UHGV virus genome: UHGV-0057547
DNA: 64,000 bases
Strand: one strand, 5' to 3'
Source of the DNA: a virus
A program made the position numbers and the translations under genes. Positions 7,225 through 63,009 of this stretch are shown here, piece after piece. A model generated the notes under the pieces. That model made no database searches, was not told the origin of the DNA, and saw only the letters and a list, made by a program, of their open reading frames with translations. Numbering within the stretch: the stretch's first letter is position 1; the number at the start of each line of letters is the position of its first letter.

Positions 7225-7258
7225 TTTACTTTTAATAATATTATTTGTATAATATAAA
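7225..7258 (+). promoter_or_regulatory. Plus-strand copy of the consensus promoter (TTTACT-N17-TATAAT)
   Basis: TTTACT at 7225-7230, 17-nt spacer, TATAAT at 7248-7253. Same family as the minus-strand repeats. Confidence 0.55.
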
Positions 7259-7289
7259 TATATTAATAATTATTAAAGGAGAGATATTA

Positions 7290-8249
7290 ATGAATGAAAA
7301 TAAATATTATGTTTATGAATGGATTAGATTAGATACAAATGAACCCTTTTATGTAGGAAAGGGATGTGGGAATAGATGGAAGGAATTATTAAATAGAAAT
7401 AATTGGTTTTTACGCATAGTTAATAAAATACCTTGTGTTGTTAATATATTACATGATAATTTAAAGGAACAAATGGCATATGATTTAGAAGTATGGTATA
7501 TAAGAGAATATAGAGATATAATAGGATATAATATGTGTAATATTTCTGATGGTGGAGAAGGTAGTGGATTATGTGGAGAAGCCAATGGTTTTTATGGTAA
7601 ACATCATACTGAAGAAACAAAACAAAAAATAGGTGAAAAATCAAAAGAAAGAAACCAAGGTGAACTTAATCCTTTTTATGGTAAACATCATAGTGAAGAA
7701 ACTAAACAAAAAATGCGTGGAAGAAAAAAATCTCAAGAAGAAATTGAAAAAATAAGAAAAGCAGTTATGGGGAAACAGTATTTTTATGAGAATAATCCTA
7801 AATCTAAAAAAATAATATGTCTTAATACATTAAAAGTATATAATTGTATTAAATTAGCCATAGATGAATTTGGAACAGAAGGTATTTATAATGTAGTTAG
7901 TGATAAATGTTCTCAAAAATCTATTGTATATAATAATGAAAATTATTATTTTATGTATTATGATGAATATTTAAATAGTTCAGAAGAAGAAATAAAAAAT
8001 AGAATGAATTCAAATAAAGATAAAAGAGTTATATGTCTTAACACATTGGAAGTATTTTCAACAATTAAAAGTGCTAAAGATAAATATAATATTTGTTCAA
8101 TAAGTGATTGTTGTAGAGGTAAAGCAAAATCTTGTGGTAAATTAAATGGTGAAAAATTAGTATGGATGTATTATAAAGATTATTTATTATTATCAGAAGA
8201 TGAAGTAGAATATAAAATAAAAACAGTAAACAAGAATTTACCTAAATAA
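7290..8249 (+). CDS. GIY-YIG homing endonuclease with NUMOD3-like repeats
   Basis: N-terminal YYVYEW...FYVGKG (GIY-YIG) motif. Two GKHH(T/S)EETKQK repeats. C-terminal C-C-x-G-K...G-x-K-W-x-Y module. RBS AAAGGAGAG before ATG 7290; the track ORF starts at 7245. Confidence 0.75.
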   Translation: MNENKYYVYEWIRLDTNEPFYVGKGCGNRWKELLNRNNWFLRIVNKIPCVVNILHDNLKEQMAYDLEVWYIREYRDIIGYNMCNISDGGEGSGLCGEANGFYGKHHTEETKQKIGEKSKERNQGELNPFYGKHHSEETKQKMRGRKKSQEEIEKIRKAVMGKQYFYENNPKSKKIICLNTLKVYNCIKLAIDEFGTEGIYNVVSDKCSQKSIVYNNENYYFMYYDEYLNSSEEEIKNRMNSNKDKRVICLNTLEVFSTIKSAKDKYNICSISDCCRGKAKSCGKLNGEKLVWMYYKDYLLLSEDEVEYKIKTVNKNLPK

Positions 8250-11654: not shown

Positions 11655-11668
11655 GGAGAAGATAAGAT

Positions 11669-11947
11669 ATGATAGATTTAAATATTTTAACAAATTATGT
11701 AGTTTTACTAGTGGTAGGAATTTGTGTGTGTATAGGATATATACTTAAAAATAGTTGTCCTAAACTAGATAATAAATATATACCACTTATAATGGGATTA
11801 TTAGGATTGGTACTTAATATTTGGTTAAGCAATTGGCAAATTAGTGGTGAAATAGTATTAGGTGGATTATTCAGTGGATTAGCTAGCGTTGGATTGCACC
11901 AGTCATTTAAACAATTAATAAATGGAAACAAAAAAGAAGATAAATAA
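11669..11947 (+). CDS. Holin (phi-LC3 / LL-H family-like)
   Basis: 92 aa with two or three TM helices. Motif GLASVGLHQ. Directly downstream of the lysin. RBS AAGGAGAAG. Confidence 0.65.
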   Translation: MIDLNILTNYVVLLVVGICVCIGYILKNSCPKLDNKYIPLIMGLLGLVLNIWLSNWQISGEIVLGGLFSGLASVGLHQSFKQLINGNKKEDK

Positions 11948-11950: not shown

Positions 11951-11990
11951 AAAGGCTAGAGAAAATAATCTCTAGCCTTTAATTTTTTTA
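11951..11990. terminator. Bidirectional rho-independent terminator at the strand switch
   Basis: GGCTAGAG / CTCTAGCC stem flanked by A-run and T-run. Lies between convergent genes ending at 11947 (+) and 12000 (-). Confidence 0.7.
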
Positions 11991-12242: not shown

Positions 12243-12929
12243 TTATCCCTCCTTTATTCTTATATAATCTTTTAAATACATCCATTTAAATCCTTTGTGT
12301 TTTTTTAATTTACCGTTGCAACATCTGTTTATATGAGAAGCATAACCATTAACATCTCTCGAAGCTTCAGCTAAACTTTCATATATACATATAAATTCAT
12401 TTTCTAATGAAAGTTTTACAACTTTTATTTTATTTGGATTGTTTTCTCTACAATACCTTCCTTTTAATGTATTTGATATTTTTTCTTTTTGTTCCTGTGT
12501 TTTTGCTTTACCTTTATTAGCATTTGATATCTTTTTATTTCTTTCAACATTTCCCCATACATTTATTTTATTATGTTTATCCCACTCTTCTCCATATGCT
12601 AAACTACATTGACATTGTCCTATTGACCAATAATATTTTTGAAGTTCATATTCAAATTTTAAAGCATCTTGTTCATTTTTAAATTCTTGAACCACTTCAA
12701 TATTATAATTATAATTTATACTTTTTACATATTCTAGCCATACTTCATTCCTTCTACTTTTACCTTCTTCCAGTTTTCTATCATAGTTTTTACGTTCATT
12801 ATTAATTGTACCTTTTCCTACATAAAAAACTTCTTTAGTTTCTTTATTAATATATTTATACACATAATATGTTTTATTCATTTTTATCAACTCTAGGGTA
12901 TGGGTTTTTACAACAAAAATCGCCTTCAT
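12243..12929 (-). CDS. GIY-YIG homing endonuclease, free-standing, overlapping the 3' end of thyX
   Basis: YYVYKYI...FYVGKGT motif. C-terminal CCNGKLKKHKGFKWMY module. The start may be the ATG at 12881; the longer start at 12929 has a good RBS inside thyX. Confidence 0.7.
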   Translation of the reverse strand: MKAIFVVKTHTLELIKMNKTYYVYKYINKETKEVFYVGKGTINNERKNYDRKLEEGKSRRNEVWLEYVKSINYNYNIEVVQEFKNEQDALKFEYELQKYYWSIGQCQCSLAYGEEWDKHNKINVWGNVERNKKISNANKGKAKTQEQKEKISNTLKGRYCRENNPNKIKVVKLSLENEFICIYESLAEASRDVNGYASHINRCCNGKLKKHKGFKWMYLKDYIRIKEG

Positions 12930-13620
12930 TGCATTTACCTCTTACACAATCTGCACCAGCATATTTAAATAAAGTAGGTGCTACTTCTTTACATAATCTT
13001 AACATTTCATTAGCTAGTTCACATATAGGTTCTTGTGCTCTATGGCAACATCTTTTATTAAAGAAATGTAATAATTCTCTTACATTCATAGTCATTACCA
13101 TTTTAGTTTCACAAGCATTAGGCAACATTCCTCTTGCATTTTCATTTGCTACTTTTTCTGCATTCATACCATTAGTTGGATAATCATTTATTTCTACATA
13201 TTCTTTTATTATTTTTTGCCATTTAATATACTTGTCTAATATCTCCATCATATCTTCATGCCATTCATCTGCCATATCCATCTCTTTTACCACATTAGGT
13301 GTAGTGTGTTTAAATGTTTCATCAAGATTAACATATCTTTGAGATTGTTGACTATATGAAGCCACTCTGTGACGGACAATTTGATGTGAAATTGTTCTAT
13401 CAATTCCTTCAATAGCAAATGTAAACGAAACATGTTCTAATGGGCTATCGTGACCTATTTCAATTAAATGTGCTAAAAATTTTTCTATTTTTTCAGGAGT
13501 AAGTTTCTCCATTATTTCATCTACACCAACTTTACTATAACATAATTTTGCAGATTGGGCAATTACTTCTTCAGGATTTGGTGTATGTGCTAATATTTTT
13601 ACTTTTAATAAATCATTCAT
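12874..13620 (-). CDS. thyX: Flavin-dependent thymidylate synthase ThyX
   Basis: ThyX signature RHRxxSxxxxSQRY present as HQIVRHRVASYSQQSQRY. Confidence 0.85.
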   Translation of the reverse strand: MNDLLKVKILAHTPNPEEVIAQSAKLCYSKVGVDEIMEKLTPEKIEKFLAHLIEIGHDSPLEHVSFTFAIEGIDRTISHQIVRHRVASYSQQSQRYVNLDETFKHTTPNVVKEMDMADEWHEDMMEILDKYIKWQKIIKEYVEINDYPTNGMNAEKVANENARGMLPNACETKMVMTMNVRELLHFFNKRCCHRAQEPICELANEMLRLCKEVAPTLFKYAGADCVRGKCNEGDFCCKNPYPRVDKNE

Positions 13621-13667
13621 ATATTTCTCTCTCCTATCAAATTATATTATATTATATTATTATTTAT

Positions 13668-13787
13668 TTATTTTCTTTTTCTTCTATTTCTTTTTGCATT
13701 TCTTTTTTTACTACTTCTTTGTACATTGTTTAATAATATTTGAAAAGTATATCTAGCTCTATCCATTCCTTGTAATTCGTTTGACAT
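13668..13787 (-). CDS. Small basic protein (39 aa), not in ORF track
   Basis: RBS GGAGTTGG, 7 nt, ATG. Product MSNELQGMDRARYTFQILLNNVQRSSKKRNAKRNRRKRK. Confidence 0.25.
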   Translation of the reverse strand: MSNELQGMDRARYTFQILLNNVQRSSKKRNAKRNRRKRK

Positions 13788-13814
13788 ATTTACCAACTCC
13801 TTTATTAATCATTT

Positions 13815-13852
13815 ACTTATATTATACTATTATTCTTGTTAAAAGTAAAGTA
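13815..13852 (-). promoter_or_regulatory. Consensus promoter repeat (TTTACT-N17-TATAAT)
   Basis: -10 at 13821-13826 and -35 at 13844-13849 on the minus strand, spacer 17. Confidence 0.55.
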
Positions 13853-13855
13853 TTT

Positions 13856-14161
13856 TTATATTAACATTGCAAATCTTGATATTTCAAAACCATTTAAGTA
13901 ATATGTGAATTCATATATTTTCAATCCATCTATTCTTTTTTCTTCTTTAGTATGTAAACTTAATGGATACATAGTTAAACTTTGCATTTTTTCTTTTAAC
14001 TCATTAGCAAAATGAAATAATTCTTCTTTCTTCCATTCTGTAAATTTATTAGTATCATAACATATTGATTCACATCTTAATATTCTTTCATTAAAATATT
14101 TTATCTCAATATCTACAAAATCCATTAACTTATTTCTATCATTATTATATTCGTCTCCCAT
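13856..14161 (-). CDS. Hypothetical protein
   Basis: 101-aa ORF, RBS AGGAGGG. Confidence 0.4.
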   Translation of the reverse strand: MGDEYNNDRNKLMDFVDIEIKYFNERILRCESICYDTNKFTEWKKEELFHFANELKEKMQSLTMYPLSLHTKEEKRIDGLKIYEFTYYLNGFEISRFAMLI

Positions 14162-14173
14162 TAATACCCTCCT

Positions 14174-14623
14174 TTATATATCATCATTATATTTAAGACA
14201 ATTGATACCCCTTAAAGAAGCTAATTTCTTACTTAATGGTGCATCATAATCTTCTAAATATATTATTGTAGTTATACCACTGTTAATAATTGCTTTCATA
14301 CAATTGACACATGGAAAAGTTGTTACATAAAGAGTAGCACTTTCGCAAGATACCCCTACTTTAGCACATTGTAAAATTGCATTCATTTCTGCATGGACTG
14401 CAAAACAAGTATCTAAATTTTCTCCACTTTTACTTTCTTTTCTTATACAGTAACCTTTATCACAACAAGGTTCTATACCTTGTGGTGAGCCATTATATCC
14501 TGTTGCTAATATCCTTTTATCTTTTACTATTACTGCTCCTACTTGCCTAGATAAACAACTAGAACGTTTAGCTATGTCTAAACATACAGTCATAAAATAT
14601 TCTTCCCATGTTAATCTTCGCAT
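14174..14623 (-). CDS. dCMP deaminase (cytidine/deoxycytidylate deaminase family)
   Basis: Zinc-binding motifs HAEMNAI and PCVNCMKAI. Confidence 0.8.
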   Translation of the reverse strand: MRRLTWEEYFMTVCLDIAKRSSCLSRQVGAVIVKDKRILATGYNGSPQGIEPCCDKGYCIRKESKSGENLDTCFAVHAEMNAILQCAKVGVSCESATLYVTTFPCVNCMKAIINSGITTIIYLEDYDAPLSKKLASLRGINCLKYNDDI

Positions 14624-14639
14624 TCAATCATCTCCTTTG

Positions 14640-14675
14640 TTTATATTATACTATTAATATTATTAAAAGTAAATA
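14640..14675 (-). promoter_or_regulatory. Consensus promoter repeat
   Basis: -10 at 14645-14650, -35 at 14668-14673, spacer 17. Confidence 0.55.
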
Positions 14676-14706
14676 AAATCCTAAGAAAAAATTCTTAGGA
14701 TTTTTT
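14676..14706 (-). terminator. Rho-independent terminator
   Basis: AATCCTAAGAA/TTCTTAGGATT stem plus T-run, directly downstream of the permease gene. Confidence 0.6.
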
Positions 14707-14708
14707 AA

Positions 14709-15887
14709 TTATTTCAATTCTTTGTGATTTAAGATTATATTTAATATAATTCCAATTATAGCAGATAACGCTAAAGAAGATAATACTACAGTTCCTAATG
14801 TTAATGTAAATCCACCTAGTCCTATAATTAACATGATTATTATAATAATTATATGTTTTATAGATTCATATGATTTGTTATCTTTTAATGACTTCATACC
14901 AACCCAAGCTATCATAAAATAAAGTTGTAAACTAATTGCTCCTACCACAAAACTAGGGATTGATTGTAGTGTTCCACTAAAATAACCACACAAAGATAAG
15001 ATTATAGCTAATATACCTGCCCTTCTAGTTAACTTGCTATCATATTGTTTTGTTAAAGCTAATACCGAAGTTGATTCTCCATAAGTAGTATTTCCTACAC
15101 TTCCAAATAATCCTCCTAAAGCAGTAGCTAAACCATCTCCAATTAATGTTTTATGCAAACCAGGGTTTTCTATGAAATTTTTATTAGTAACAACGCTTAA
15201 TGTAGTTATATCTCCTATATGTTCCAAGCAAGTTACTAATGCGACAGGGGCAATAATCATAATTGCCGTTAAATCAAATTTAGGTAATACTATACTAGGT
15301 AACATTATACTTTGTGATTGTGTTACAATAGAAAAATCAACTAAACCACATGAAATAGATATTACATATCCAACTAATAATGCTATCATTATTCCTAATT
15401 GTTTTAATAATCTTTTTCCAAATAATAGAATTAATAATGATATACTTAAAGATATTATAGCTATCAATACATTTCCTTGTATATTTGTTATAGCACTAGG
15501 AACTAAAGATAATCCAATTATTATTATCATTGTCCCTGTTATATGAGGTGGCAATATTTTATTAATTTTGTTTACCCCTATCTTATAGATTAATAGTGCA
15601 AATACAATATATATTAATCCTACTATTATAAATCCACCACAACTATATTCATAACCATATTGTGAGACAATCATGGACATAGGAGTTATAAAAGCAAAAC
15701 TAGAGCCTAAGAATGCCGGTACTTTATTTTTTGTAATAAAACCAAATAACAAAGTACCAACGCCAGCAGTGAATAACGCAGTAGATGGAGGAAATCCAAC
15801 CAATAATGGCACGAGCGTAGTTGCTCCTACACAAGCCAATAATATTTGTAAGCTTAATAACCATTCTTTTATATTTTGTTTTTTCAT
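14709..15887 (-). CDS. uraA: Uracil permease (NCS2 family, UraA/PyrP-like)
   Basis: 12-14 TM. Strong resemblance to UraA blocks (GATxLVPxL...GxGTLLFxxITKxKxPAxLGSSFAFIxP and TTYGEsxxVxAxT). Confidence 0.8.
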   Translation of the reverse strand: MKKQNIKEWLLSLQILLACVGATTLVPLLVGFPPSTALFTAGVGTLLFGFITKNKVPAFLGSSFAFITPMSMIVSQYGYEYSCGGFIIVGLIYIVFALLIYKIGVNKINKILPPHITGTMIIIIGLSLVPSAITNIQGNVLIAIISLSISLLILLFGKRLLKQLGIMIALLVGYVISISCGLVDFSIVTQSQSIMLPSIVLPKFDLTAIMIIAPVALVTCLEHIGDITTLSVVTNKNFIENPGLHKTLIGDGLATALGGLFGSVGNTTYGESTSVLALTKQYDSKLTRRAGILAIILSLCGYFSGTLQSIPSFVVGAISLQLYFMIAWVGMKSLKDNKSYESIKHIIIIIIMLIIGLGGFTLTLGTVVLSSLALSAIIGIILNIILNHKELK

Positions 15888-15946
15888 TATACCAAATCCT
15901 TTCTCTATCTCTCATGGATAGAATTAAAATTATTTATTATATTATT

Positions 15947-16321
15947 TTAATCTAAAACATACCATTTATCATTAATTTCATCAAATGTAAATAAATTATC
16001 ATTACAACGATAATATGTTTTACTATCGTAATATACAGCCATTACCTCATTTTCTGATAAACAATATGCAATTTTACTATCTACACTTTGTATCACATAC
16101 CCATCTTTAAATGCCTTAAATGCTTCAGTAAAATCATACTCTTTCTTTTCTAATTCAAGTTCCAAATCATCAGGAATAGTATTAATTCTATAAACATTAT
16201 AGATTAACCCAAATTCAATTCCATTTTCTGTTTTTGTAATATATCTTATATCACTTTTATCATCAACACTTTTATACTTTTCACCAACTTTTATATTATT
16301 GATAACATCTATAAATTTCAT
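15947..16321 (-). CDS. Hypothetical protein
   Basis: 124-aa ORF, RBS GGAGGGA. Confidence 0.4.
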   Translation of the reverse strand: MKFIDVINNIKVGEKYKSVDDKSDIRYITKTENGIEFGLIYNVYRINTIPDDLELELEKKEYDFTEAFKAFKDGYVIQSVDSKIAYCLSENEVMAVYYDSKTYYRCNDNLFTFDEINDKWYVLD

Positions 16322-16349
16322 ATTATCCCTCCTTTAAAATATTATTTAT

Positions 16350-16865
16350 TTATTTCATATTACCTTTTATTACATTCATAATATTTTTCATGTCATTATT
16401 AGTAAAAGTAAAATAATTAATATTATTAGATTCTAATATATGTTGTGTTATATTATCTATTTCTATAGCCTTTTCTTCATTTTGAAGTCTACCATTTTCT
16501 TGATATACTGTTTGTCTTCTTAATAAGAAATTAAGATTATTATATTGATTAAATGTTTTTAAGCATAAATCACATAATTCCTTATTATCTTGATTATAAG
16601 CATTAGTTAAAAGTATTGGTCTATCAGTAACTATTATATCAACTTTTCCATTAACTCTAAATAATCTATGATTTTGTTTAGCAAATATATATAGTTCATC
16701 TTTAAAAGTTTCACCTCTCCTTTCCCATACAAGGTCTTTAGCAAATTCAGTAACCATCTCACAGTCATATCCTTCGGTTTTAAGTTCTGCAAATATTTTA
16801 GCCATAAGAGTAGATTTACCAACTCCAGCACCACCAAATAAATTAACCACTAGAGTGTTTTTCAT
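16350..16865 (-). CDS. P-loop NTPase, possible (d)NMP kinase
   Basis: Walker A NLFGGAGVGKSTL at the N-terminus; 171 aa. Confidence 0.45.
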   Translation of the reverse strand: MKNTLVVNLFGGAGVGKSTLMAKIFAELKTEGYDCEMVTEFAKDLVWERRGETFKDELYIFAKQNHRLFRVNGKVDIIVTDRPILLTNAYNQDNKELCDLCLKTFNQYNNLNFLLRRQTVYQENGRLQNEEKAIEIDNITQHILESNNINYFTFTNNDMKNIMNVIKGNMK

Positions 16866-16990
16866 TGTTCATCCCACCTTTTATAAAAATAAAATATATT
16901 AATATAATACTTATTTACATTTTCTTATGTCAATAGTTTTAATAAATCTTCTACACATAATATTCCACCAAATTCTTTCTCTATCTCTAT

Positions 16991-17749
16991 TTAATCAGTT
17001 ATCTCTACCTCATATTTATATAATGCTTCATATAATTTATTTGGTATTTTATCTTTATATTTATCAGCAACTTCTTTAATTCCTTTTTCTTTAAATTGTT
17101 TGTATACTTGAAATGCTTCTTCTTTAGTTTGATAACGTCCTAAATGCTTACCCTTATAGCTACTCGCATACTTATTGTCTTTTGTTTCATATACACCTAT
17201 TGGACATTTACCTCTTCGCTTTTTATTTGTTTCAAAAGATTTGTTGATGCTACTTGGAATAAAAACACACGTTTCAGGAGAGTATATTTTATTACCTTTT
17301 ATTAAAATATCTTTATCTAATTCCATTTTCTCTCTTTCTATTTCATAATAATTTTCATAAAACCATTTAGCATAATTTTGGAAACATAAAAATTCGTCAC
17401 AAACTTTACAATCTTTATAAGCAGGTTCTTTTATTAAATATTTTTTATTATAACATCTTTTTAACATTGATAACCATTTGGAAAATGCAACAGTTATCTT
17501 TTTATCAATATAAGTTGGAAAATTACCTTCTCCTAAATATCCTACTCCATAATATCTAGGCTCATATGGACACAACACTGCTCCTTTACTAAAATTTTTA
17601 TATGTTTTACAATAAGCAATATAATTATATTTAGGAAACAATATATCTACATCATTTCTTCCTTTACATTTTATTATTATCATCTTGCTTCCAAAATTAT
17701 TATAATTAACTTCTCCTGTTCTATCTTTAAACCAACCTTTACTTGGCAT
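16991..17749 (-). CDS. HNH-type homing endonuclease with C-terminal AP2-like DNA-binding domain
   Basis: N-terminal NFGSKMIII...GAVLCPYEPRYYGVGY motif shared with 56215..56985. C-terminal GVYETKDNKYASSYKGKHLGRYQTKEEA (AP2-like). Confidence 0.55.
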   Translation of the reverse strand: MPSKGWFKDRTGEVNYNNFGSKMIIIKCKGRNDVDILFPKYNYIAYCKTYKNFSKGAVLCPYEPRYYGVGYLGEGNFPTYIDKKITVAFSKWLSMLKRCYNKKYLIKEPAYKDCKVCDEFLCFQNYAKWFYENYYEIEREKMELDKDILIKGNKIYSPETCVFIPSSINKSFETNKKRRGKCPIGVYETKDNKYASSYKGKHLGRYQTKEEAFQVYKQFKEKGIKEVADKYKDKIPNKLYEALYKYEVEITD

Positions 17750-19163
17750 TGTTAATCCTCCATTCTTTTAATATATCCTCAGCACATAAAATTCCTTGAC
17801 TACATGCAGTTGTTAAACCACGCCCCATTCCACTACAATCACCTATAAAATATATATTAGAATTAGAACTTTTACCATATTTATCTATCAATACTTTATT
17901 ACTATGGAATTTCGCTTCCAATCCATATAGCAATGTATTATCTCCATTTATACCTGGTACTATCTTATCTAATTCTTCTATAAATTCTAATATAGTTACT
18001 AATGTTCTATATGGTATAGAACTTGTTAAGTCACCTTTGTATACATTTGCAGTAGGTATTATATCTAATTCTCTTATTCTTTCTTCGGTACTTCTTCTAT
18101 TTAGTTTAATATCTTTTAAACTTTGAAGTATAACGCTTCCTTTTCCTAAAGAATTTGTTGCTTGGATTATTGTATAGGCATAATCCTCTAAAGGATTTTC
18201 TAAGTCTTCATTAAAATTTCTACTAACTAATATTGCAAAGTTTGTATTATCTGATTTCTTATCTGCATAAGCATGACCATTAGCAGTAAATAATTTTTTA
18301 TCACCATGAGAATAACTTTCTACAGTTACAAATCCACTAGGATTTGTGCAAAACATTCTTGATTTATCTCCAAAACTTCCTTGAAAATATATTTTACATT
18401 CATAAAAATTATCGTTTAATCTTTTCATTACTTTATTAGGTACTTCTATTCTAACTCCCATATCTACCCTACCATTCTTATAATCTATGGCATTATTTTC
18501 ACATATTTCTTTTACTAGTTTATTGCCAGTTCTTCCCATCGCTACTATTATTTTATCAAATATAAAAGTTTTATATTCTTTATTTTGCAAACAATATACA
18601 TATTTATCCTTAACAGTAAATACTTCACATTCACTAATTATTTCTACTCCATGTTCTTCTAAAAAATACAACATTCTTTTATATACTGTTCTGCTATTCT
18701 CTGTTCCTAGATGAATTGTAATACAATCGCCTATATCTAATTTAGGATTATCTTTAATTATTTGCATTATTTCTTTTGCTTCTTCAGTATGTTCTTTTCC
18801 ATATGCTTTAGATTTAAATTCTTCTATTCCAAATTGTTGATATATTTCATAAGTCTTTTTTAAATATTTAGTTATCTCTTCTTCGGTCATTAATTCAGCC
18901 ATATCTCCTCCTACTCTACCTGTAGTATCAAAGTTAAGTTTGCTATCTGAAAAACTTCCAGCTCCACCACAACCATGTGTTATAGAACATATTTTACATT
19001 TTTTACAAGATGTGTCAGCAGTTACAAAACATTTTCTTTTATCTATTGTCTTTCCTTTTTCTAACATTGTTATATTAGCACCATCAAATCCATTATTGAT
19101 TAATTCTATTGCTGTAAAAATTCCTGAAGCACCAGTTCCAATTATTCCTATATTATTATACAA
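17739..19163 (-). CDS. FAD-dependent oxidoreductase (COG2509-like)
   Basis: N-terminal GxGxxG (IIGTGASGIFTA) dinucleotide fold. Cys cluster CKKCKICSITHGCGGAG; 474 aa. Confidence 0.5.
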   Translation of the reverse strand: MYNNIGIIGTGASGIFTAIELINNGFDGANITMLEKGKTIDKRKCFVTADTSCKKCKICSITHGCGGAGSFSDSKLNFDTTGRVGGDMAELMTEEEITKYLKKTYEIYQQFGIEEFKSKAYGKEHTEEAKEIMQIIKDNPKLDIGDCITIHLGTENSRTVYKRMLYFLEEHGVEIISECEVFTVKDKYVYCLQNKEYKTFIFDKIIVAMGRTGNKLVKEICENNAIDYKNGRVDMGVRIEVPNKVMKRLNDNFYECKIYFQGSFGDKSRMFCTNPSGFVTVESYSHGDKKLFTANGHAYADKKSDNTNFAILVSRNFNEDLENPLEDYAYTIIQATNSLGKGSVILQSLKDIKLNRRSTEERIRELDIIPTANVYKGDLTSSIPYRTLVTILEFIEELDKIVPGINGDNTLLYGLEAKFHSNKVLIDKYGKSSNSNIYFIGDCSGMGRGLTTACSQGILCAEDILKEWRINNAK

Positions 19164-19189
19164 TATATCATCTCCAATCTAATGTCTTT

Positions 19190-19228
19190 AATGTTATTAT
19201 ACTAAATCAATTATAAAAAGTCAACAAT
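19190..19228 (-). promoter_or_regulatory. Consensus promoter repeat (TTGACT-N17-TATAAT)
   Basis: -10 at 19197-19202, -35 at 19220-19225, spacer 17. Confidence 0.55.
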
Positions 19229-19260
19229 TTTATAAAAAAATAGGAAGAAAATTTCTTCCT
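19228..19260 (-). terminator. Repeated terminator hairpin AATAGGAAGAA/TTCTTCCTATT
   Basis: Downstream of dut. Same hairpin recurs at 54.15, 55.31 and 59.51 kb. Confidence 0.6.
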
Positions 19261-19271
19261 ATTTTATATTG

Positions 19272-19841
19272 TTATCTACTTGATGTCGTCCCAAAGCCCC
19301 CTCTATTTTCTGTACCTAAATCATCAGTTTCATTAAATTCAATAGTTGGTGGAATTTGACATATCTCCATTTGACATATTTTGTCACCTTTTTTAATCCA
19401 CGTTCCACTTACAGTTACTTTGTGTCCATTTATTATAACTTTTTCAGTTTGTTTTGCCATAGTACATTGACAAGGATACATATAAACGTCTTCATTCCCG
19501 CAGTATGAATTATCAATTATTGCGACGTGATTGGTTTGTATTATCCCCCACGTTTTAAAAGTTGAACTTCTAGGATATAATTTAGCCATATAACCTTCAG
19601 GTAATTTTAATGAAAATCCTAGAGATACTAATGCTTGACCCATATAAGGAATAAATACATCTTCATATGCATATAAATCTATAAAGTCACCTTTTGATAT
19701 TTTTAATAATTTATTAGCACCTTCTAAATATTTTATATCTGCTTTTAAAGTTTTAGTATCTTCAGAAGTATCATCTATAATATCTTCTCCTTTTGTATCT
19801 TTTAATCCTTTAAAATATTTATTTAAATCTATATTTTCCAT
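19272..19841 (-). CDS. dut: dUTP diphosphatase (trimeric dUTPase)
   Basis: Motifs PRSS (motif 2), GIIDNSYCGE (motif 3), C-terminal RGGFGTT (motif 5). Confidence 0.8.
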   Translation of the reverse strand: MENIDLNKYFKGLKDTKGEDIIDDTSEDTKTLKADIKYLEGANKLLKISKGDFIDLYAYEDVFIPYMGQALVSLGFSLKLPEGYMAKLYPRSSTFKTWGIIQTNHVAIIDNSYCGNEDVYMYPCQCTMAKQTEKVIINGHKVTVSGTWIKKGDKICQMEICQIPPTIEFNETDDLGTENRGGFGTTSSR

Positions 19842-20099: not shown

Positions 20100-20137
20100 A
20101 TTTATATTATACTATTATTTTTCTTTATTGTCAAGAG
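20100..20137 (-). promoter_or_regulatory. Consensus promoter repeat (TTGACA-N17-TATAAT)
   Basis: -10 at 20106-20111, -35 at 20129-20134. Confidence 0.55.
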
Positions 20138-20707: not shown

Positions 20708-21355
20708 TTATTTCTTCTTTGTTTTCTTACTTTTACTTTCTTCACATTCTTTAATATGTTTATTTATTATAGCTTTTACTTCTTTAATTGCTTCATCTAA
20801 TCGACCATTACTATTTTTTACTTCACTATATACAGTATGAACTCTAAAAGGCATAAAACGTTCATAATCATCTTTTAATCTTCTATCAATTTCTGCTTCT
20901 AAGTCACCTCTAGCTAATGCTCTAGCTTTTATTTCTTCTTGTGGAGCAGTTATAAATATTGGAACTATCTTATTATTTCCTACATATGCTTTAAGTTCTT
21001 TAAAACCAATTGAATCAACTATAACTATCAAATAATTATCTTTTTCCAATTCTGCTCTTTCTATACCATATCTCCAAGTTGCATCTTTTTCTATGCCATT
21101 TTCTTCTACTTTAGTATGATATACTCTTTGTTCTACAAAATCTGTTCCTCTTTCAAAGAAATCTTTATCATTAATAAAATAATATTCTACACCATCTGTC
21201 TCACCATTTCTCATAGGTCTAGTTGTTGTGCTAATTATTGGTTTTACATTTTCCATATCTTTTAATACCTGCTTAAGTATCGTATCTTTACCAGCACCCA
21301 TATAGCCAAGTAATACAAATATCTTTTTAGCCTTTACATTTCTACTCATTAACAT
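20708..21355 (-). CDS. gmk: Guanylate kinase-like (d)NMP kinase
   Basis: P-loop GYMGAGKDT. Guanylate kinase signature STTTRPMRNGETDGVEYYF. Confidence 0.7.
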   Translation of the reverse strand: MLMSRNVKAKKIFVLLGYMGAGKDTILKQVLKDMENVKPIISTTTRPMRNGETDGVEYYFINDKDFFERGTDFVEQRVYHTKVEENGIEKDATWRYGIERAELEKDNYLIVIVDSIGFKELKAYVGNNKIVPIFITAPQEEIKARALARGDLEAEIDRRLKDDYERFMPFRVHTVYSEVKNSNGRLDEAIKEVKAIINKHIKECEESKSKKTKKK

Positions 21356-21374: not shown

Positions 21375-21411
21375 CTTATATTATACTATCATTCTTATTA
21401 AAAGTCAATTA
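21375..21411 (-). promoter_or_regulatory. Consensus promoter repeat
   Basis: -10 at 21380-21385, -35 at 21403-21408, spacer 17. Confidence 0.6.
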
Positions 21412-21726: not shown

Positions 21727-24700
21727 TTAATTACATTTGCTATATCCACAATTTAAACATGAATCACATCCATTAGTTTTTATTAATGATGACTCTCCAC
21801 ATTCAGGACACACATTTCCTTTAAGTTCTTCTTTTTTATCATTATTCTTATTTGATTTTTCAACAACTTTCTCTATAACCTTTTCTTCTTTTCCTATCTC
21901 TTTTAAAAATGCCTTCATTTCTTTTAATATAGCCATACCACAATAACTACCATCTGATAAATGATTTCCTTTTCCTCTTTCTCTAGTAAAACTTGGACAA
22001 GCTGATACTCCAGCAAAACTTTTTTCAATCATAGATAAATCTCCACCAATTCTAAGTATAGAGGACATTAATATAGCTATACATTGTAAATTCTTTTCAC
22101 ATCCACCACTACCACTCTTAGTTATATAGACATCTTGTATAGTGTTTTCACTAGGAGACCAACCTATAAATAATTTAAGTTTTCCACAACCAATTATTAA
22201 ATTACGTTTAACATAATAAGTATCTTCTGCTAAAGATTTCCATTGACCACGTTTTAATAATTCTTTTTCTTCGTCTTCTTTTTCATCTTTTGTTGTAAGA
22301 ACACCTTGTCTAGCACATCCATCACGATATATTGTTAATCCTTTTAATCCTTCTTTCCATGCCTCCATATACAATTCTTCAACTTCTTCTACTGTTGCTT
22401 CATTTGGTAAATTTATAGTTGAACTAATTGAAGCATCTATATGTTTTTGCCATACCCCTTGCATTTTAACTCTCATGTGAGGATTTAAAGTTTGGGCAGT
22501 TACAAAGAAATTAGGTAATTCTTCTTCCTCGTTTAAACCATGAAGTTCCATATATTCTTTTGCTATTGGAGTGTATACTTTATAATAAACATCTCCTTCT
22601 TTATGAAGTGATTCAGTTTTTCTAGTATATGATAAATTAAATATAGGTTCTATACCACCACTTACCCCTATCATTGTAGATATTGAACCAGTTGGTGCTA
22701 TTGTTAATAACTGAGAATTTCTAAGTCCATATTTCTTTACTAACTCATAAGTTTCTACACTTGCATTTTTTATTAAAAATTCAGAAGTTAATATAGAAGG
22801 TTTATATTTAGGATAATGACCTTCTTCTTTAGAAAGTAATGCACTAACTTTTATTGATTCATCTGCTAATATTTTGCCTATAGTATCACATATTTCTGTT
22901 GCTTCATCAGTATCATATTTTAATTCAAGTTTAATTAACATATCAGCTATACCCATAACACCAATTCCTATTTGTCTATAATCTCTAACGGTATCTCTTT
23001 GTATTTGCAATGGATGTAGTGGTAAACCTTGGTCTAATACATCATTCATTGCTTTTACTATTGTATGAATATCTTTCTTAAATGCACATATATCAAAAAT
23101 TTTATCATTAACATAAGCTGATAAATTTATACTTCCTAATAAACAGCTTCCACCATTTGGAAGTGGTTCTTCTGCGCAATTATGAGCCACATAACCTTCT
23201 ATTATCCCCCAATGGTTTCTAGGCTCTTTAAAATCATATACTAACTTTTTACCATTATCTTTTATATTTCTAACATAAGGAACTCTACTTTCTATTAATT
23301 TATTAAGTTTTATCTTTTTATAAGTTTGATAAAATCCTATAAATTGTGCAAATAATAATATATCATCATATTTATTTATATTTACATCATAACTTTCTCT
23401 ACATTCATATTCACCATTTTCAAATTCTACCATATGTTTTTTATTTATTGTTAAATTTGCAGTTATCCCAAAATCTTTTTCTAAATTATTTATAAGTTCT
23501 AAAGCAAATTCTTTACAAGTTGTTTTATAACTTATTCTTTTATTTGAATTAACACACCCATTAGCAGAAAAACAACCTTGTAAAAAGTTTGCTTTTTGAT
23601 TTAGATTCCATTCATTATAAGCCTTAGGCATGATTCTATTTGGTAATACTTCTTGTGAAAACTGAAGTTGTTCTAGTAAATCATTATAACCTTGTAAATA
23701 TATAGCTCTATATGATTTTGTAGTATATTCATCATTTTCAAATAAATATCTTATATCTCCATCTTTAACACCTATATTAACTTCTATTCCATTATGCCAT
23801 TCACTGTTTAATCTACTTAATTGTCCATCTCCTTGTATAAAGCCTAATTTAATAAACAATTCATCATCTTTTATTGTTTTATATATTTTAGGCATAATTT
23901 TTTTATTTTTTAAATTTTTAGCTTCACATTCCTCTCCATTGATAGTCATAAATCTATGGTCAGGAGTACATGTTATTTCTTTATTGTTTGATAGTATTAA
24001 TTTTATTGTATCCTTTTCACCATTACACCATACTTTTCCTTTTGAAACTAAACCATCATAACTATATATTAATGGTTCTGTATCACATAATTCTTTTAAA
24101 GTTTTAAATCCTTCATGTGTTAATAATTTCATATCTCCAGTAAAACAAGGATTTACACCTGCATATTCAAATTCATCATCTTCACTTAATAAATTATAAT
24201 CTTCTATTCTTGACCAATATAATATCCCAGGTTCTGCGAAGTCCCAGTTGTTTCTACATAATAATTTAAATACTTCTTTAGCTTTAACAACTTTTTCCAT
24301 TTTATCATTTTCTGCTTCAAAATGTAATACCCAATCTTCATCATTTTCTACTGCCTTCATAAAATCATCATTAACTCTTACTGATATATTTGCTTTAGTA
24401 ACTTTATTTAAATCTGTTTTTATATTTATGAAGTCTATAAGTTCGGGATGCGTACAATCTAATGATAGCATCAAAGCTCCTCTACGACCATTCTGACCAA
24501 TTGTAGATGTGACCTGAGAGAAGGTATCCATAAAACTACAAGCTCCAGTAGTTTCTTTAGAAGCATTATTTACTTTCATACCTTTAGCTCTTAGCTTAGA
24601 TATGTCGACCCCACAACCTCCTCCATAAGAAAATGTTCTAGCCAAATCACTACAAGTTTTATATATATCTTCTATACTATCATCTGTTTTAAGTACATAA

Positions 24701-24927
24701 CAATTTGAATACGTTACTTTTTTACCATGTTTTTCTAATCCTCTATTGCTTAAAATTCTTCCTCCAAACAAAAATTTCTTATCTCTAATTAATTGTTTAA
24801 GTTCTTCATTTTTATTTGATACTCTATCTAACCAATCTTCAAAACTTTCACCCTCAAATTGATATTTATTATGCCATATATCAATTCCTAATTGATTATC
24901 TTCTCCTAGCCATTCTTTTATATCCAT
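21727..24927 (-). CDS. nrdJ: Class II (B12-type) ribonucleotide reductase NrdJ-like, interrupted by an in-frame intein
   Basis: YGGGCGVDISKLR block. NPC...(intein)...CAEEPLPNGGSCLL active-site region. C-terminal Cys-rich zinc ribbon CPECG...CDSCLNCGYSKC. Start likely ATG 24927 (RBS AAGGAGAGAT); the track gives 24975. Confidence 0.8.
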   Translation of the reverse strand: MDIKEWLGEDNQLGIDIWHNKYQFEGESFEDWLDRVSNKNEELKQLIRDKKFLFGGRILSNRGLEKHGKKVTYSNCYVLKTDDSIEDIYKTCSDLARTFSYGGGCGVDISKLRAKGMKVNNASKETTGACSFMDTFSQVTSTIGQNGRRGALMLSLDCTHPELIDFINIKTDLNKVTKANISVRVNDDFMKAVENDEDWVLHFEAENDKMEKVVKAKEVFKLLCRNNWDFAEPGILYWSRIEDYNLLSEDDEFEYAGVNPCFTGDMKLLTHEGFKTLKELCDTEPLIYSYDGLVSKGKVWCNGEKDTIKLILSNNKEITCTPDHRFMTINGEECEAKNLKNKKIMPKIYKTIKDDELFIKLGFIQGDGQLSRLNSEWHNGIEVNIGVKDGDIRYLFENDEYTTKSYRAIYLQGYNDLLEQLQFSQEVLPNRIMPKAYNEWNLNQKANFLQGCFSANGCVNSNKRISYKTTCKEFALELINNLEKDFGITANLTINKKHMVEFENGEYECRESYDVNINKYDDILLFAQFIGFYQTYKKIKLNKLIESRVPYVRNIKDNGKKLVYDFKEPRNHWGIIEGYVAHNCAEEPLPNGGSCLLGSINLSAYVNDKIFDICAFKKDIHTIVKAMNDVLDQGLPLHPLQIQRDTVRDYRQIGIGVMGIADMLIKLELKYDTDEATEICDTIGKILADESIKVSALLSKEEGHYPKYKPSILTSEFLIKNASVETYELVKKYGLRNSQLLTIAPTGSISTMIGVSGGIEPIFNLSYTRKTESLHKEGDVYYKVYTPIAKEYMELHGLNEEEELPNFFVTAQTLNPHMRVKMQGVWQKHIDASISSTINLPNEATVEEVEELYMEAWKEGLKGLTIYRDGCARQGVLTTKDEKEDEEKELLKRGQWKSLAEDTYYVKRNLIIGCGKLKLFIGWSPSENTIQDVYITKSGSGGCEKNLQCIAILMSSILRIGGDLSMIEKSFAGVSACPSFTRERGKGNHLSDGSYCGMAILKEMKAFLKEIGKEEKVIEKVVEKSNKNNDKKEELKGNVCPECGESSLIKTNGCDSCLNCGYSKCN
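23179..24147 (-). mobile_element. Intein with LAGLIDADG homing endonuclease domain inside the RNR
   Basis: 323 in-frame codons begin with Cys directly after extein GVNP and end ...VAHN, followed by Cys. Two LAGLIDADG-like motifs (LGFIQGDGQL, FLQGCFSANGCV). Placed at the conserved NPC(G/A)E active-site motif. Confidence 0.75.
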
Positions 24928-24984
24928 ATTATCTCTCCTTTTCAAATCTAATATAACCACTATATATTGTAGCATATAAAAAAT

Positions 24985-49682: not shown

Positions 49683-49716
49683 CTTATATTATACTATTAC
49701 TCTTATAGGATTTTTA
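49683..49716 (-). promoter_or_regulatory. Promoter repeat with degenerate -35
   Basis: TATAAT at 49688-49693 (minus); -35 region replaced (AAATCC). Confidence 0.35.
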
Positions 49717-50286
49717 TATATTTTCATAATAATTTAAAATTTCACCTAAGCAATAATCCAATTCTTCCCAATTGTCAACTCTAGTATGAACACTAGATTT
49801 TATATTTTTATTATGTGGTGCAGAAAACAATATTGTATATGCAAAAGGATGGTATTTCTTATAATTGTCTAAATTCCCTATATAATCATCTACTAATACA
49901 TCGGCTGATACAATATGCTTACAATCAGTATTTACAAATTTATCAAAATATTTATCTATTTCATATTTTCTTAATAATTCTATTTTCTTTTCAAAAGTAT
50001 TTTCTTCTTCAGTAGCAGAAACCAATATAAAATGTACACCTTTATTGTGATATTTTTCTAAGACATCTTTTATAATTTCACTTTTTATTTTCATCTCAAG
50101 TATAATGTTGGAGTCTTCTAATAATTGGAATAATCCATGTGTAAACTTTGTTCTATCTATTTTCCAATCGGTTACATCATTTTCAACAGTAAAATTTGTT
50201 CCATATTTCTCATTATATTTATCTACTAAAGTTGGTATAAAATTTATAAGAACATCATCATTATCTAAAGCTACAGTTAATTCCAT
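49714..50286 (-). CDS. 5'(3')-deoxyribonucleotidase (HAD superfamily, NT5C-like)
   Basis: N-terminal DxDxV motif ALDNDDVL. HAD-like downstream blocks. Confidence 0.65.
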   Translation of the reverse strand: MELTVALDNDDVLINFIPTLVDKYNEKYGTNFTVENDVTDWKIDRTKFTHGLFQLLEDSNIILEMKIKSEIIKDVLEKYHNKGVHFILVSATEEENTFEKKIELLRKYEIDKYFDKFVNTDCKHIVSADVLVDDYIGNLDNYKKYHPFAYTILFSAPHNKNIKSSVHTRVDNWEELDYCLGEILNYYENI

Positions 50287-62942: not shown

Positions 62943-63009
62943 ACAATAACGTTTCAGTGCTTGTTACAATTTCAGAACAAGCTTCCCTATTCATCGTATC
63001 CTCTTTCCT

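What the first reader, a model, noticed from the sequence alone, without database searches (positions are those of the whole stretch)
12243..19841. Phage-encoded uracil permease embedded in a pyrimidine-salvage cluster (ThyX, dCMP deaminase, dUTPase)
A full-length 12-14-TM NCS2 transporter closely resembling UraA/PyrP sits between dCMP deaminase and thyX on one side and dUTPase on the other. Guanylate kinase, class II RNR and a 5'-deoxynucleotidase lie further along. Soluble nucleotide-metabolism AMGs are common in large phages. A nucleobase importer is not. It implies the phage boosts uracil uptake to feed dUMP to dTMP synthesis via ThyX for its AT-rich genome. The presence of ThyX and dUTPase argues against a dU-containing genome.
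Basis: partly seen in the sequence, partly recalled or inferred. Interest (0 to 1): 0.55.

Follow-up and report, generated by a model that had tools for sequence, protein, structure and literature searches.

The report
Phage-carried PyrP-type uracil permease gene
A group of large gut phages that probably infect Clostridia carries its own intact copy of a bacterial uracil-uptake transporter among its thymidine-nucleotide-making genes, most likely to pull in extra uracil for the phage's very AT-rich DNA; this is unusual but has an annotated precedent and no experimental test.

Summary
Window 14709-15887 (-) encodes a full-length 392-aa NCS2/NAT permease. It scores Pfam Xan_ur_permease 4e-74 and hits E. 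coli UraA at 1.5e-68. The model superposes on UraA at TM 0.87, and every uracil-contacting residue is kept.

It lies between dCMP deaminase and ThyX on one side and dUTPase on the other. Guanylate kinase and an intein-bearing class II RNR follow.

It is not host contamination. The same module recurs in all the independent 12-215 kb metagenome and IMG/VR contigs examined. The phage permeases form one clade, 54-97% identical to each other. That clade is sister to PyrP of Clostridium disporicum and Peptostreptococcaceae, at 60% identity or less. dN/dS is 0.08.

The closest bacterial homologue examined sits in a pyrR-pyrP operon with PyrR attenuator RNAs. The phage copy has none.

Best explanation: a captured PyrP that imports uracil under phage control. 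Host Upp and the phage RNR, dUTPase and ThyX would then turn it into dTMP.

- two homing endonuclease genes;
- an AAA_28 P-loop protein probably co-transcribed with the permease;
- a conserved FAD/Cys4 flavoprotein of unknown function;
- cassette-like allelic replacement of the permease;
- the annotated 'uracil permease' of related phage c-st.

Verdict: new member of a known kind, moderate interest.

The parts
14709..15887 (-). PyrP/UraA-type NCS2 nucleobase:cation symporter, 392 aa
   Evidence: PF00860 4e-74. NCBIfam uracil permease 322 bits. UraA 3qe7 1.5e-68. Model TMq 0.87 to UraA 5xls. Uracil-contact residues kept. dN/dS 0.079 against L001.
14675..14704 (-). Terminator-like hairpin (13-bp stem followed by a T-rich, A-interrupted tail) directly after the permease stop codon
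   Evidence: sequence read. It lies inside the swapped cassette.
16904..16933 (-). Promoter-like site (TTGACA-18-TATTAT, 11 of 12 matches) upstream of AAA_28; putative start of an AAA_28 / ORF124 / permease transcription unit
   Evidence: This is a consensus match only. Overall promoter-like counts are not enriched over shuffles.
16350..16865 (-). AAA_28 P-loop NTPase/kinase-like protein (the PHROG label is 'thymidylate kinase'); substrate unknown
   Evidence: PF13521 1.1e-11. phrog_2107 5.7e-22. No informative PDB relative. Conserved beside the permease in L001, L086 and L092.
15947..16321 (-). Conserved 124-aa ORF of unknown function immediately upstream of the permease
   Evidence: 90-94% identical in the related IMG/VR contigs that carry it, and at the same position. 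Only a weak DUF7381 hit.
14174..14623 (-). dCMP deaminase (ComEB-like zinc deaminase)
   Evidence: PF00383 9e-27; ComEB model 1.9e-41, below its cut-off.
13856..14161 (-). Conserved 101-aa ORF of unknown function
   Evidence: 85-88% identical in related contigs. No family hit.
12874..13620 (-). ThyX flavin-dependent thymidylate synthase
   Evidence: PF02511 4.4e-65; TIGR02170 181 bits against a cut-off of 88. Replaced by ThyA plus DHFR in L089 and L093.
12243..12929 (-). NUMOD-like homing endonuclease candidate; overlaps the 3' end of thyX and is variably present
   Evidence: Weak PF22083 hit, 1.2e-3. Present in L088, L101 and L103; absent in L001 and L086.
16991..17749 (-). HNH homing endonuclease, variably present
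   Evidence: phrog_953 6e-57. Absent at this position in L086-L088. The flank alignments skip it.
17739..19163 (-). FAD-dependent protein (COG2509 / VP0956-like) with four invariant cysteines; function unknown
   Evidence: PF07992 and PF21688. 3nlc is the only good sequence and fold match. C45, C53, C56 and C59 are invariant. Syntenic in all clade members examined, but also found without a permease in L096.
19272..19841 (-). Trimeric-type dUTPase
   Evidence: PF00692 1.2e-10. PDB YncF 3.8e-32 and SPbeta YosS 3.8e-30.
20708..21355 (-). Guanylate kinase-like protein
   Evidence: PF00625 1.8e-13. TIGR03263 1.7e-23, below its cut-off.
21727..24975 (-). Class II (adenosylcobalamin) ribonucleoside-diphosphate reductase NrdJ, interrupted by an intein
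   Evidence: TIGR02504 477 bits against a cut-off of 400; intein N-terminal domain hit. Intein and LAGLIDADG domains in homologues.
49714..50286 (-). NT5C-type 5'(3')-deoxyribonucleotidase
   Evidence: PF06941 8.3e-15.

Best explanation
The gene is a PyrP-type uracil:H+ symporter. An ancestor of this clade of roughly 140-215 kb, 25% GC gut phages captured it once from a Clostridia host of the Peptostreptococcaceae / Clostridium sensu stricto type. It has been kept under purifying selection since.

Proposed mechanism:
1. The permease is transcribed from phage promoters within the leftward replication and nucleotide-metabolism block, probably together with the AAA_28 and ORF124 genes. It lacks the PyrR attenuator that throttles the bacterial pyrP gene when pyrimidines are plentiful.
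2. The protein is inserted into the host membrane and raises uracil uptake during infection.
3. Host Upp/PyrR converts uracil to UMP, and host kinases make UDP.
4. The phage NrdJ makes dUDP.
5. After phosphorylation to dUTP, the phage dUTPase gives dUMP. The phage dCMP deaminase supplies dUMP as well.
6. The phage ThyX gives dTMP for a genome that is about 75% A+T.

Shown here: the identity, fold and binding residues of the permease; its phage residency; its conservation and selection; its origin; and the absence of a detectable PyrR element.

Inferred: the substrate (uracil), the direction of transport, the timing of expression, the dependence on host Upp, and the benefit to phage yield.
For: Family and fold:
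- PF00860 4e-74. The best NCBIfam model is uracil permease.
- UraA structures are the top sequence hits at 1.5e-68.
- The AlphaFold model (pLDDT 70) superposes on UraA 5xls at TMq 0.87.

Binding site:
- UraA S72, F73, E241, G289, E290, Y342 and I345 are all retained. Apart from G289 (114 of 119), they are invariant in 119 phage-clade sequences. The roles of these residues are taken from PMC5539350.
- The first residue of the NAT motif is Glu, as in UraA.

Orthology to PyrP:
- The closest named bacterial homologue (Romboutsia, 50% identity) lies in an lspA-rluD-pyrR-pyrP arrangement.
- That locus has PyrR-binding RNA matches before pyrR and before pyrP.
- No such match appears in window 14500-17200 at the same threshold.

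Genuine phage gene:
- Identical synteny (RNR, Gmk, RuvC, dUTPase, FAD protein, permease, dCMP deaminase, ThyX or ThyA+DHFR, lysis genes) in contigs from the independent samples examined and from IMG/VR.
- GC and GC3 match the neighbouring genes.
- The phage permeases are monophyletic. No bacterial homologue above 60% identity was found.

Selection: dN/dS 0.079 at dS 0.28.

Pathway logic: NrdJ, dUTPase, dCMP deaminase and ThyX are all present, and each passes a curated Pfam or NCBIfam threshold or has a strong PDB match. ThyX alternates with ThyA+DHFR in sister phages.
Against: - No transport, expression or labelling data exist.
- The score is below the NCBIfam uracil-permease equivalog cut-off (322 against 477). 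The pyrR-linked Romboutsia PyrP also fails it (332).
- The NAT motif deviates from the consensus: E-S-T-S instead of E-N-x-G. G293->S is specific to the phage clade, in 119 of 119 sequences against 3 of 78 bacterial ones. Specificity or kinetics may therefore differ.
- The proton-coupling His245 of UraA is Asp here. This is shared with all 78 bacterial homologues compared.
- No upp, tdk or nucleoside phosphorylase was found in the 64-kb window, so the pathway depends on unverified host enzymes.
- The host is unknown.
- The model has low confidence (pLDDT below 50) around residues 265-281, which contain E271.
- The promoter assignment is only a consensus match in AT-rich DNA.
Confidence: 0.62

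Rival explanations
1. It is a lysogenic-conversion (moron-like) gene. The permease is expressed from the prophage or phage-plasmid state and benefits the lysogen by improving pyrimidine scavenging, rather than serving lytic DNA synthesis.
For: The nearest cultured relatives, phiCD211 and c-st, are, from my own knowledge, temperate or plasmid-like prophages; one search shows only the similarity. The ORF is followed by its own terminator-like hairpin. It behaves as a discrete exchangeable cassette. c-st carries its permease close to the toxin genes.
Against: The gene is co-oriented with, and embedded in, the nucleotide-metabolism and replication block. No high-scoring promoter-like site was found directly upstream of it; the nearest strong match lies ahead of AAA_28. 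Its composition is identical to that of its neighbours. Its position between dUMP-producing and dUMP-consuming enzymes is conserved across the whole clade. No integrase or partition genes were seen in the window, though the rest of the genome was not examined.
Confidence: 0.15
2. It is a transporter of the same family but with a different or broader substrate: thymine as in RutG, another pyrimidine or analogue, or a modified base.
For: Within the uracil cluster of NCS2, specificity varies. UraA is uracil-specific and RutG takes uracil and thymine (PMC6308229). There are clade-specific changes in the NAT motif next to the binding Glu: G293->S in 119 of 119 sequences and N291->S in 33 of 119. 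Two alleles only about 61% identical circulate in otherwise near-identical phages. The window also has a DUF1599 'nucleotide modification associated' domain protein.
Against: All residues that contact uracil in UraA are conserved. The sister group is the PyrP orthologue set, one member of which is linked to pyrR. Thymine import would make ThyX, dCMP deaminase and dUTPase less necessary, yet all are retained.
Confidence: 0.15
3. It has a non-transport role: a membrane protein used for superinfection exclusion, masking of a receptor, or perturbing the membrane.
For: The cassette-like allelic replacement with deep divergence resembles loci involved in phage-phage or phage-host conflict.
Against: Invariance of the buried substrate-binding residues across 119 sequences, together with dN/dS of 0.08, points to selection on transport chemistry. 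Synonymous divergence between the alleles is also near saturation (dS about 0.9-1.0). That indicates recombination with an old allele rather than positive selection.
Confidence: 0.03
4. It is host DNA present through misassembly, transduction or a mis-set prophage boundary.
For: Most other NCS2 hits in phage databases appear from their record names and sizes to be contaminated or fragmentary records, but they were not inspected.
Against: The same gene sits in the same internal position in every independent assembly examined, from different studies. It is flanked on both sides by phage genes. No bacterial genome match above 60% identity was found. GC3 is the same as in the neighbouring genes.
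Confidence: 0.01

Closest known systems
Bacillus subtilis-type PyrP / E. coli UraA uracil:H+ symporters (NCS2/NAT family, COG2233, uracil cluster)
   Same: The fold is the 14-TM 7+7 fold (TM 0.87 to UraA). Identity is 36-38% to UraA and 48-60% to Clostridia PyrP orthologues. All uracil-coordinating residues are retained. The length and domain organisation match.
   Different: The gene is encoded by a phage and has no PyrR attenuator. It is shorter (392 aa against 429), with trimmed loops and termini. The NAT motif reads E-S-T-S, and the Gly-to-Ser change is specific to the phage clade. His245 is Asp, as in the bacterial relatives compared here. It falls below the NCBIfam equivalog cut-off.
Clostridium botulinum phage c-st CST091 (and D-1873) 'uracil permease'
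   Same: It is an NCS2 permease in a related large clostridial phage (PolIII alpha 55% identical). It is also placed among nucleotide-salvage genes: nucleoside 2-deoxyribosyltransferase, thymidine kinase and deoxyribonucleotidase. Both Glu residues are kept.
   Different: It is only 28% identical to the window protein and 24% to UraA. F73, H242 and G289 differ. It therefore looks like a separate lineage or an independent capture. Its neighbouring genes imply base-to-deoxynucleoside salvage rather than the RNR/dUTPase/ThyX route.
Soluble phage nucleotide-metabolism auxiliary genes (RNR, ThyX/ThyA, dCMP deaminase, dUTPase, as in T4-like and other large phages)
   Same: The same apparent purpose, enlarging the dTTP supply for phage DNA. 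The genes are physically clustered and co-oriented.
   Different: This is an integral membrane importer acting on the extracellular pool, not a cytoplasmic enzyme. It needs the host membrane-insertion machinery.

Membership tests
NCS2/NAT (Pfam Xan_ur_permease, COG2233) | Significant full-length match to the family profile, above the curated threshold | tested here: met
   PF00860 at 250 bits against a gathering score of 27, covering profile positions 3-386 of 389. TIGR00801 ncs2 at 288 bits, just under its cut-off of 291.8.
NCS2/NAT (Pfam Xan_ur_permease, COG2233) | 14-TM 7+7 inverted-repeat fold with core and gate domains | tested here: met
   The AlphaFold model (pLDDT 70, pTM 0.66) matches UraA 5xls, 8omz and 3qe7 at TMq 0.82-0.87 over about 395 columns, and UapA at 0.81.
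NCS2/NAT (Pfam Xan_ur_permease, COG2233) | NAT signature motif [Q/E/P]-N-x-G-x-x-x-x-T-[R/K/G] in TM10 (motif recalled from the literature) | tested here: inconclusive
   The window reads E271-S-T-S-V-L-A-L-T-K. The first, T and K positions fit. N is replaced by S (33 of 119 phage sequences) and G by S (119 of 119 phage sequences, 3 of 78 bacterial).
Uracil permease UraA/PyrP subgroup | Uracil-coordinating residues: E241 and E290 side chains, F73 and G289 backbone, S72 via water, and gate residues Y342 and I345 (PMC5539350) | tested here: met
   These map to S63, F64, E222, G270, E271, Y323 and I326 in the window protein. They are invariant in 119 phage-clade sequences, apart from G289 at 114 of 119.
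Uracil permease UraA/PyrP subgroup | Proton-coupling His245 of UraA | tested here: not met
   The residue is Asp226. All 78 bacterial homologues compared, including the pyrR-linked Romboutsia PyrP orthologue, also have Asp. This therefore separates E. coli UraA from the PyrP-type proteins compared here, not phage from bacterium.
Uracil permease UraA/PyrP subgroup | Score above the NCBIfam 'uracil permease' equivalog cut-off (PRK10720, 477 bits) | tested here: not met
   322 bits. The pyrR-linked Romboutsia PyrP (332) and the C. disporicum homologue (371) also fail it. The cut-off is therefore too strict for Clostridia orthologues.
Uracil permease UraA/PyrP subgroup | Closest cellular relatives are pyr-operon-linked PyrP orthologues | tested here: met
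   The sister group in the NJ tree is C. disporicum, Peptostreptococcaceae and Tissierella. The Romboutsia member lies in lspA-rluD-pyrR-pyrP with PyrR RNA sites.
Uracil permease UraA/PyrP subgroup | Demonstrated uracil transport | not testable with these tools
   Needs uptake assays or 5-FU sensitivity assays.
Phage auxiliary metabolic gene | Encoded inside a bona fide phage genome, flanked by phage genes, and conserved among related phages | tested here: met
   The lysis cassette lies on one side and the replication block on the other. Synteny is conserved in all contigs examined, including seven IMG/VR UViGs.
Phage auxiliary metabolic gene | Maintained by purifying selection in the phage lineage | tested here: met
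   dN/dS 0.079 (dS 0.28) against L001. dN/dS is 0.34 at saturating dS against the other allele. These values are comparable to those of ThyX and dCMP deaminase.
Phage auxiliary metabolic gene | Expressed during infection and altering host metabolism | not testable with these tools
   Only consensus promoter and terminator matches are available.

The most novel reading that the evidence does not exclude
The permease is one part of a previously undescribed phage salvage route, not a simple uracil booster. In this reading the two deeply diverged permease alleles that are swapped as cassettes have different base specificities, for example uracil versus thymine or a modified pyrimidine. They would work with the co-transcribed AAA_28 kinase-like protein and the conserved FAD/Cys4 (probably Fe-S) flavoprotein to process an imported base. 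Alternatively, the allelic turnover could reflect conflict in which the surface-exposed permease is itself a target.
Probability: 0.08. Interest if true: 0.7.

Novelty: new member of a known kind. Interest (0 to 1): 0.42.

Why it matters
Phage auxiliary genes for nucleotide supply are almost always soluble enzymes acting on the host's internal pools. A conserved integral-membrane importer would mean a phage clade also taps the external nucleobase pool. It would do so free of the host's PyrR feedback control.

The gut lumen is, from general knowledge, likely to contain free uracil. Uptake there could influence burst size. It could also link phage success to diet- or microbiota-derived pyrimidines. 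Infected cells might also become more sensitive to fluoropyrimidine drugs.

The case is easy to test, because uptake and 5-FU assays in standard mutants exist. It also provides a naturally diverged set of about 120 PyrP variants for studying transporter specificity.

Tried and rejected
- Megablast of the 7.6-kb interval against 50,697 phage records found no match. No cultured close relative exists. Protein-level relatives are phiCD211 and c-st.
- The first genome-contig scan, with the single protein, found nothing. Against that, among the top 120 database hits only one carries an NCBI source, and it lies on phage contigs.
- Plasmid collection: only TnpB matched at the DNA level, and permease matches were 47% identical or less. 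No phage-plasmid relative was found and no host could be named.
- The cluster look-up gave no organism names.
- Four of the six literature searches (for phage uracil or nucleobase permeases and COG2509) found no relevant paper.
- I tested whether the FAD protein is functionally coupled to the permease and rejected obligate coupling. A 66% identical homologue sits in another phage with no permease. All four combinations of the permease and FAD alleles occur. Its fold matches only the uncharacterised VP0956.
- The PDB search for the AAA_28 protein gave only spurious P-loop (RecA concatemer) hits.
- The PyrR attenuator search at gathering threshold failed even on the bacterial control. The E-value threshold was needed.
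- The simple hydropathy segmentation was too noisy to count TM helices. I used the structural superposition instead.

Full report
**What is in the interval**

Window 12243-19841 is part of a long leftward-transcribed block in a genome of 25.5% GC. On the minus strand, reading from right to left, the genes are:

- dUTPase, 19272-19841. PF00692; PDB YncF 3.8e-32 and SPbeta YosS 3.8e-30.
- A 474-aa FAD-dependent protein, 17739-19163.
- An HNH endonuclease, 16991-17749. phrog_953 6e-57.
- An AAA_28 P-loop protein, 16350-16865.
- A 124-aa ORF, 15947-16321.
- The NCS2 permease, 14709-15887.
- dCMP deaminase, 14174-14623.
- A 101-aa ORF, 13856-14161.
- ThyX, 12874-13620. TIGR02170 at 181 bits against a cut-off of 88.
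- A NUMOD-like endonuclease candidate, 12243-12929.

Further along lie RuvC, guanylate kinase, an intein-containing class II NrdJ (TIGR02504 at 477 bits against a cut-off of 400) and a TnpB gene. The NT5C deoxynucleotidase is at 49714-50286. The block converges on a holin and endolysin cassette at 10290-11947, with a bidirectional terminator-like hairpin at 11951-11980.

**The permease itself**

- The protein is 392 aa. It matches Xan_ur_permease almost end to end at 4e-74.
- Its best NCBIfam model is uracil permease PRK10720. RutG and xanthine permease score lower.
- Its best solved relatives are the E. coli UraA structures, at 1.5e-68.
- An AlphaFold model built from 16 homologues has moderate confidence (pLDDT 70). 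It superposes on UraA at TMq 0.82-0.87 over the whole chain.
- In UraA, uracil is held by the Glu241 and Glu290 side chains, the backbone of Phe73 and Gly289, and Ser72 through a water molecule. The gate residues Tyr342 and Ile345 close over it. His245 is implicated in proton coupling (PMC5539350).
- In an alignment of 119 phage-clade proteins, 78 bacterial homologues and UraA, all the contact residues are retained in the window protein: S63, F64, E222, G270, E271, Y323 and I326.
- His245 is Asp. This holds in every bacterial homologue compared, so it is a feature of the PyrP-type proteins compared here and not a defect.
- The one clade-specific oddity is in the NAT motif, which reads E-S-T-S rather than E-N-x-G. 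The Gly-to-Ser change is found in 119 of 119 phage sequences but only 3 of 78 bacterial ones.

**It is a real phage gene**

- A search of the 5.8-billion-protein collection gave 120 listed relatives at 59-97% identity.
- Every context I examined was a phage contig with the same module. This covered 15 contigs holding seven of these proteins. Some contigs were fragments of a few kb to 41 kb, and others were 140-205 kb.
- Seven IMG/VR viral contigs also carry the permease, most of them with the full module. One is a 147-kb contig whose permease is 97% identical.
- The module reads: RNR, Gmk, RuvC, dUTPase, FAD protein, AAA_28 or another small gene, permease, dCMP deaminase, ThyX, lysis genes.
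- In one sub-lineage, ThyX is replaced at the same position by ThyA plus DHFR. This non-orthologous displacement supports a genuine thymidylate-synthase function at this locus.
- GC (28%) and GC3 (15%) of the permease match its neighbours.
- No bacterial genome yielded a homologue above 60% identity.
- In a neighbour-joining tree the phage proteins form one clade. Its sister group is the PyrP set of Clostridium disporicum, Romboutsia, Intestinibacter, Asaccharospora, Clostridioides, Metaclostridioides, Tepidibacter and Tissierella.
- Against a 95%-identical relative, dN/dS is 0.079 at dS 0.28. This is similar to ThyX (0.11) and dCMP deaminase (0.08).

Misassembly, transduction and pseudogenisation are thus excluded. 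The evidence points to one old capture from a Clostridia host, followed by vertical inheritance.

**Relation to bacterial PyrP and its regulation**

The Romboutsia homologue (50% identity) lies in the order lspA, rluD, pyrR, permease. From my own knowledge, this is the arrangement of the B. subtilis pyr operon, whose PyrP is the experimentally defined uracil permease. At a permissive threshold, Rfam finds PyrR-binding-site matches upstream of pyrR (35 bits) and between pyrR and the permease (44 bits, E 1.5e-4) in that locus. The same search over window 14500-17200 finds none.

Instead, the phage gene lies downstream of a near-consensus sigma-70-like site at 16933-16904, ahead of AAA_28. It is followed immediately by a 13-bp hairpin with a T-rich tail at 14704-14675. 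A plausible AGGA ribosome-binding site lies about 9 nt ahead of the ATG. This suggests an AAA_28 / ORF124 / permease transcription unit that is uncoupled from host pyrimidine feedback. The promoter call is only a consensus match in AT-rich DNA, and such sites are not enriched over shuffles.

**Most likely mechanism**

The phage inserts extra PyrP into the host membrane to raise uracil uptake. Host Upp/PyrR would make UMP; no upp, tdk or nucleoside phosphorylase was found among the window's ORFs. After phosphorylation to UDP, the phage NrdJ, an NDP reductase by its equivalog match, makes dUDP. The phage dUTPase converts the resulting dUTP to dUMP. The dCMP deaminase adds dUMP from dCMP, and ThyX methylates dUMP to dTMP. 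Imported uracil would also feed UTP and CTP for transcription.

A genome of about 75% A+T makes dTTP the obvious bottleneck.

1. Two variably present homing-endonuclease genes (12243-12929 and 16991-17749), plus the RNR intein and a TnpB gene, show that this module is heavily colonised by selfish elements.

2. The permease behaves as an exchangeable cassette. In IMG/VR contigs L101-L103 and in L086-L088, the flanking genes are 91-99% identical in protein to the window. For L101 and L102 the flanking DNA is 93-96% identical. The stretch from about 14664 to 15942, which holds the ORF, the hairpin and the ribosome-binding region, is only about 72% identical in DNA and 60-62% in protein. Synonymous divergence there is near saturation (dS 0.92-1.0 against 0.05-0.19 in the flanks). 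This is recombination with an old allele, not rapid evolution.

3. The FAD protein shows the same two-allele pattern (about 99% against about 75%). All four permease/FAD allele combinations exist, which argues against tight co-adaptation of the two.

4. The FAD protein itself is conserved throughout the clade. It resembles only the uncharacterised Vibrio protein VP0956 (3nlc), by both sequence and fold. It has four invariant cysteines (C45, C53, C56, C59) in a loop modelled with low confidence, which suggests a metal or Fe-S site. It also occurs in another large phage without a permease and distantly in Campylobacter phages. Its role is unexplained.

**Precedent and rarity**

A tblastn search of 50,697 phage records found NCS2 matches in 45 records. 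Most of these records are unannotated, short or multi-contig entries and were not inspected, so they may include host DNA. The clear native case among the annotated hits is C. botulinum phage c-st and its relative D-1873. By PolIII alpha, c-st is a relative of the present phage at 55% identity. Its CST091 'uracil permease' sits beside a nucleoside 2-deoxyribosyltransferase and a thymidine kinase, with a deoxyribonucleotidase nearby. CST091 is only 28% identical to the window protein and lacks several UraA-type residues, so it is a separate lineage.

PHROGs already holds a family for such proteins: phrog_20031, function unknown. I found no paper that discusses a phage nucleobase permease as an auxiliary gene. 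The library searched is limited to open-access text, so this absence is weak evidence.

**Verdict**

The substrate, the timing of expression and the benefit to the phage remain untested.

This is a new, well-populated phage clade carrying a known kind of transporter, with an annotation-level precedent in c-st. It is of moderate interest. The cassette polymorphism and the neighbouring flavoprotein are the most open threads.

Noticed in passing
window 14664-15942; compared with L101, L102, L103, L086-L088: The permease ORF, together with its terminator hairpin and ribosome-binding region, is a swapped cassette. It is about 72% identical in DNA and 60-62% in protein, inside flanks whose genes are 91-99% identical in protein (93-96% in DNA for L101 and L102). 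dS is near saturation in the cassette only. Two old alleles are therefore recombining among near-identical phages.
   Followed up: partly
window 17739-19163 (-): A conserved 474-aa FAD-dependent protein (COG2509 / VP0956-like). It has four invariant cysteines (C45, C53, C56, C59) in a loop modelled with low confidence, possibly an Fe-S or metal site. It is syntenic with the nucleotide module in all clade members examined, but is also present in a phage without the permease (L096) and distantly in Campylobacter phages. It also exists as two alleles, about 99% and about 75% identical. Its function is unknown.
   Followed up: partly
window 49556-49621 (-) and 62983-63047 (-): Two strong matches to the Rfam RAGATH-18 RNA motif (69 and 63 bits against a gathering score of 45), in intergenic positions of the replication block.
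   Followed up: no
window 42995-44854, 51595-52686, 56989-58605, 29254-29913, 27687-28619 (all -): Unusual host-like genes for a phage: a full-length FtsH-type AAA/M41 protease, an alpha-amylase-family enzyme, an M18 aminopeptidase, a peptidase S51 and a ClpP-like protease. A related phage carries a GH77 4-alpha-glucanotransferase (L096).
   Followed up: no
window 36986-38668 and 35032-36564 (-): DNA polymerase III alpha appears split into two ORFs, PHP plus the NTPase domain and the finger plus HHH domains, with about 420 nt between them. The N-terminal part is 64% identical to phiCD211 and 55% to c-st.
   Followed up: no
window 21727-24975 (-), 25123-26223 (-), 12243-12929 (-), 16991-17749 (-), 7245-8249 (+), 52646-54067 (-): A dense load of selfish elements: an intein with a LAGLIDADG domain in NrdJ, an IS605-family TnpB (about 73% DNA identity to copies on C. 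botulinum and C. sporogenes plasmids), and several HNH/NUMOD homing endonuclease genes that are variably present among relatives.
   Followed up: partly
L089, L093 (relatives), at the position equivalent to window 12874-13620: A sister lineage replaces ThyX with ThyA plus DHFR at the same locus. L089 also inserts an N6/N4 DNA methyltransferase between the permease and dCMP deaminase.
   Followed up: partly
window 45572-46096 (-), 34620-35018 (-), 28707-29270 (-): A DUF1599 'nucleotide modification associated domain 1' protein, a DUF488 protein and a YpsA/SLOG-family protein. These are possible hints of nucleotide or DNA modification chemistry and were not examined.
   Followed up: no
window 20106-20134, 21380-21408, 19196-19224, 16904-16933 (-): Four near-perfect sigma-70 consensus sites (11-12 of 12 matches) on the coding strand, placed in intergenic gaps of the nucleotide module. 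This suggests several host-RNAP-dependent promoters.
   Followed up: no
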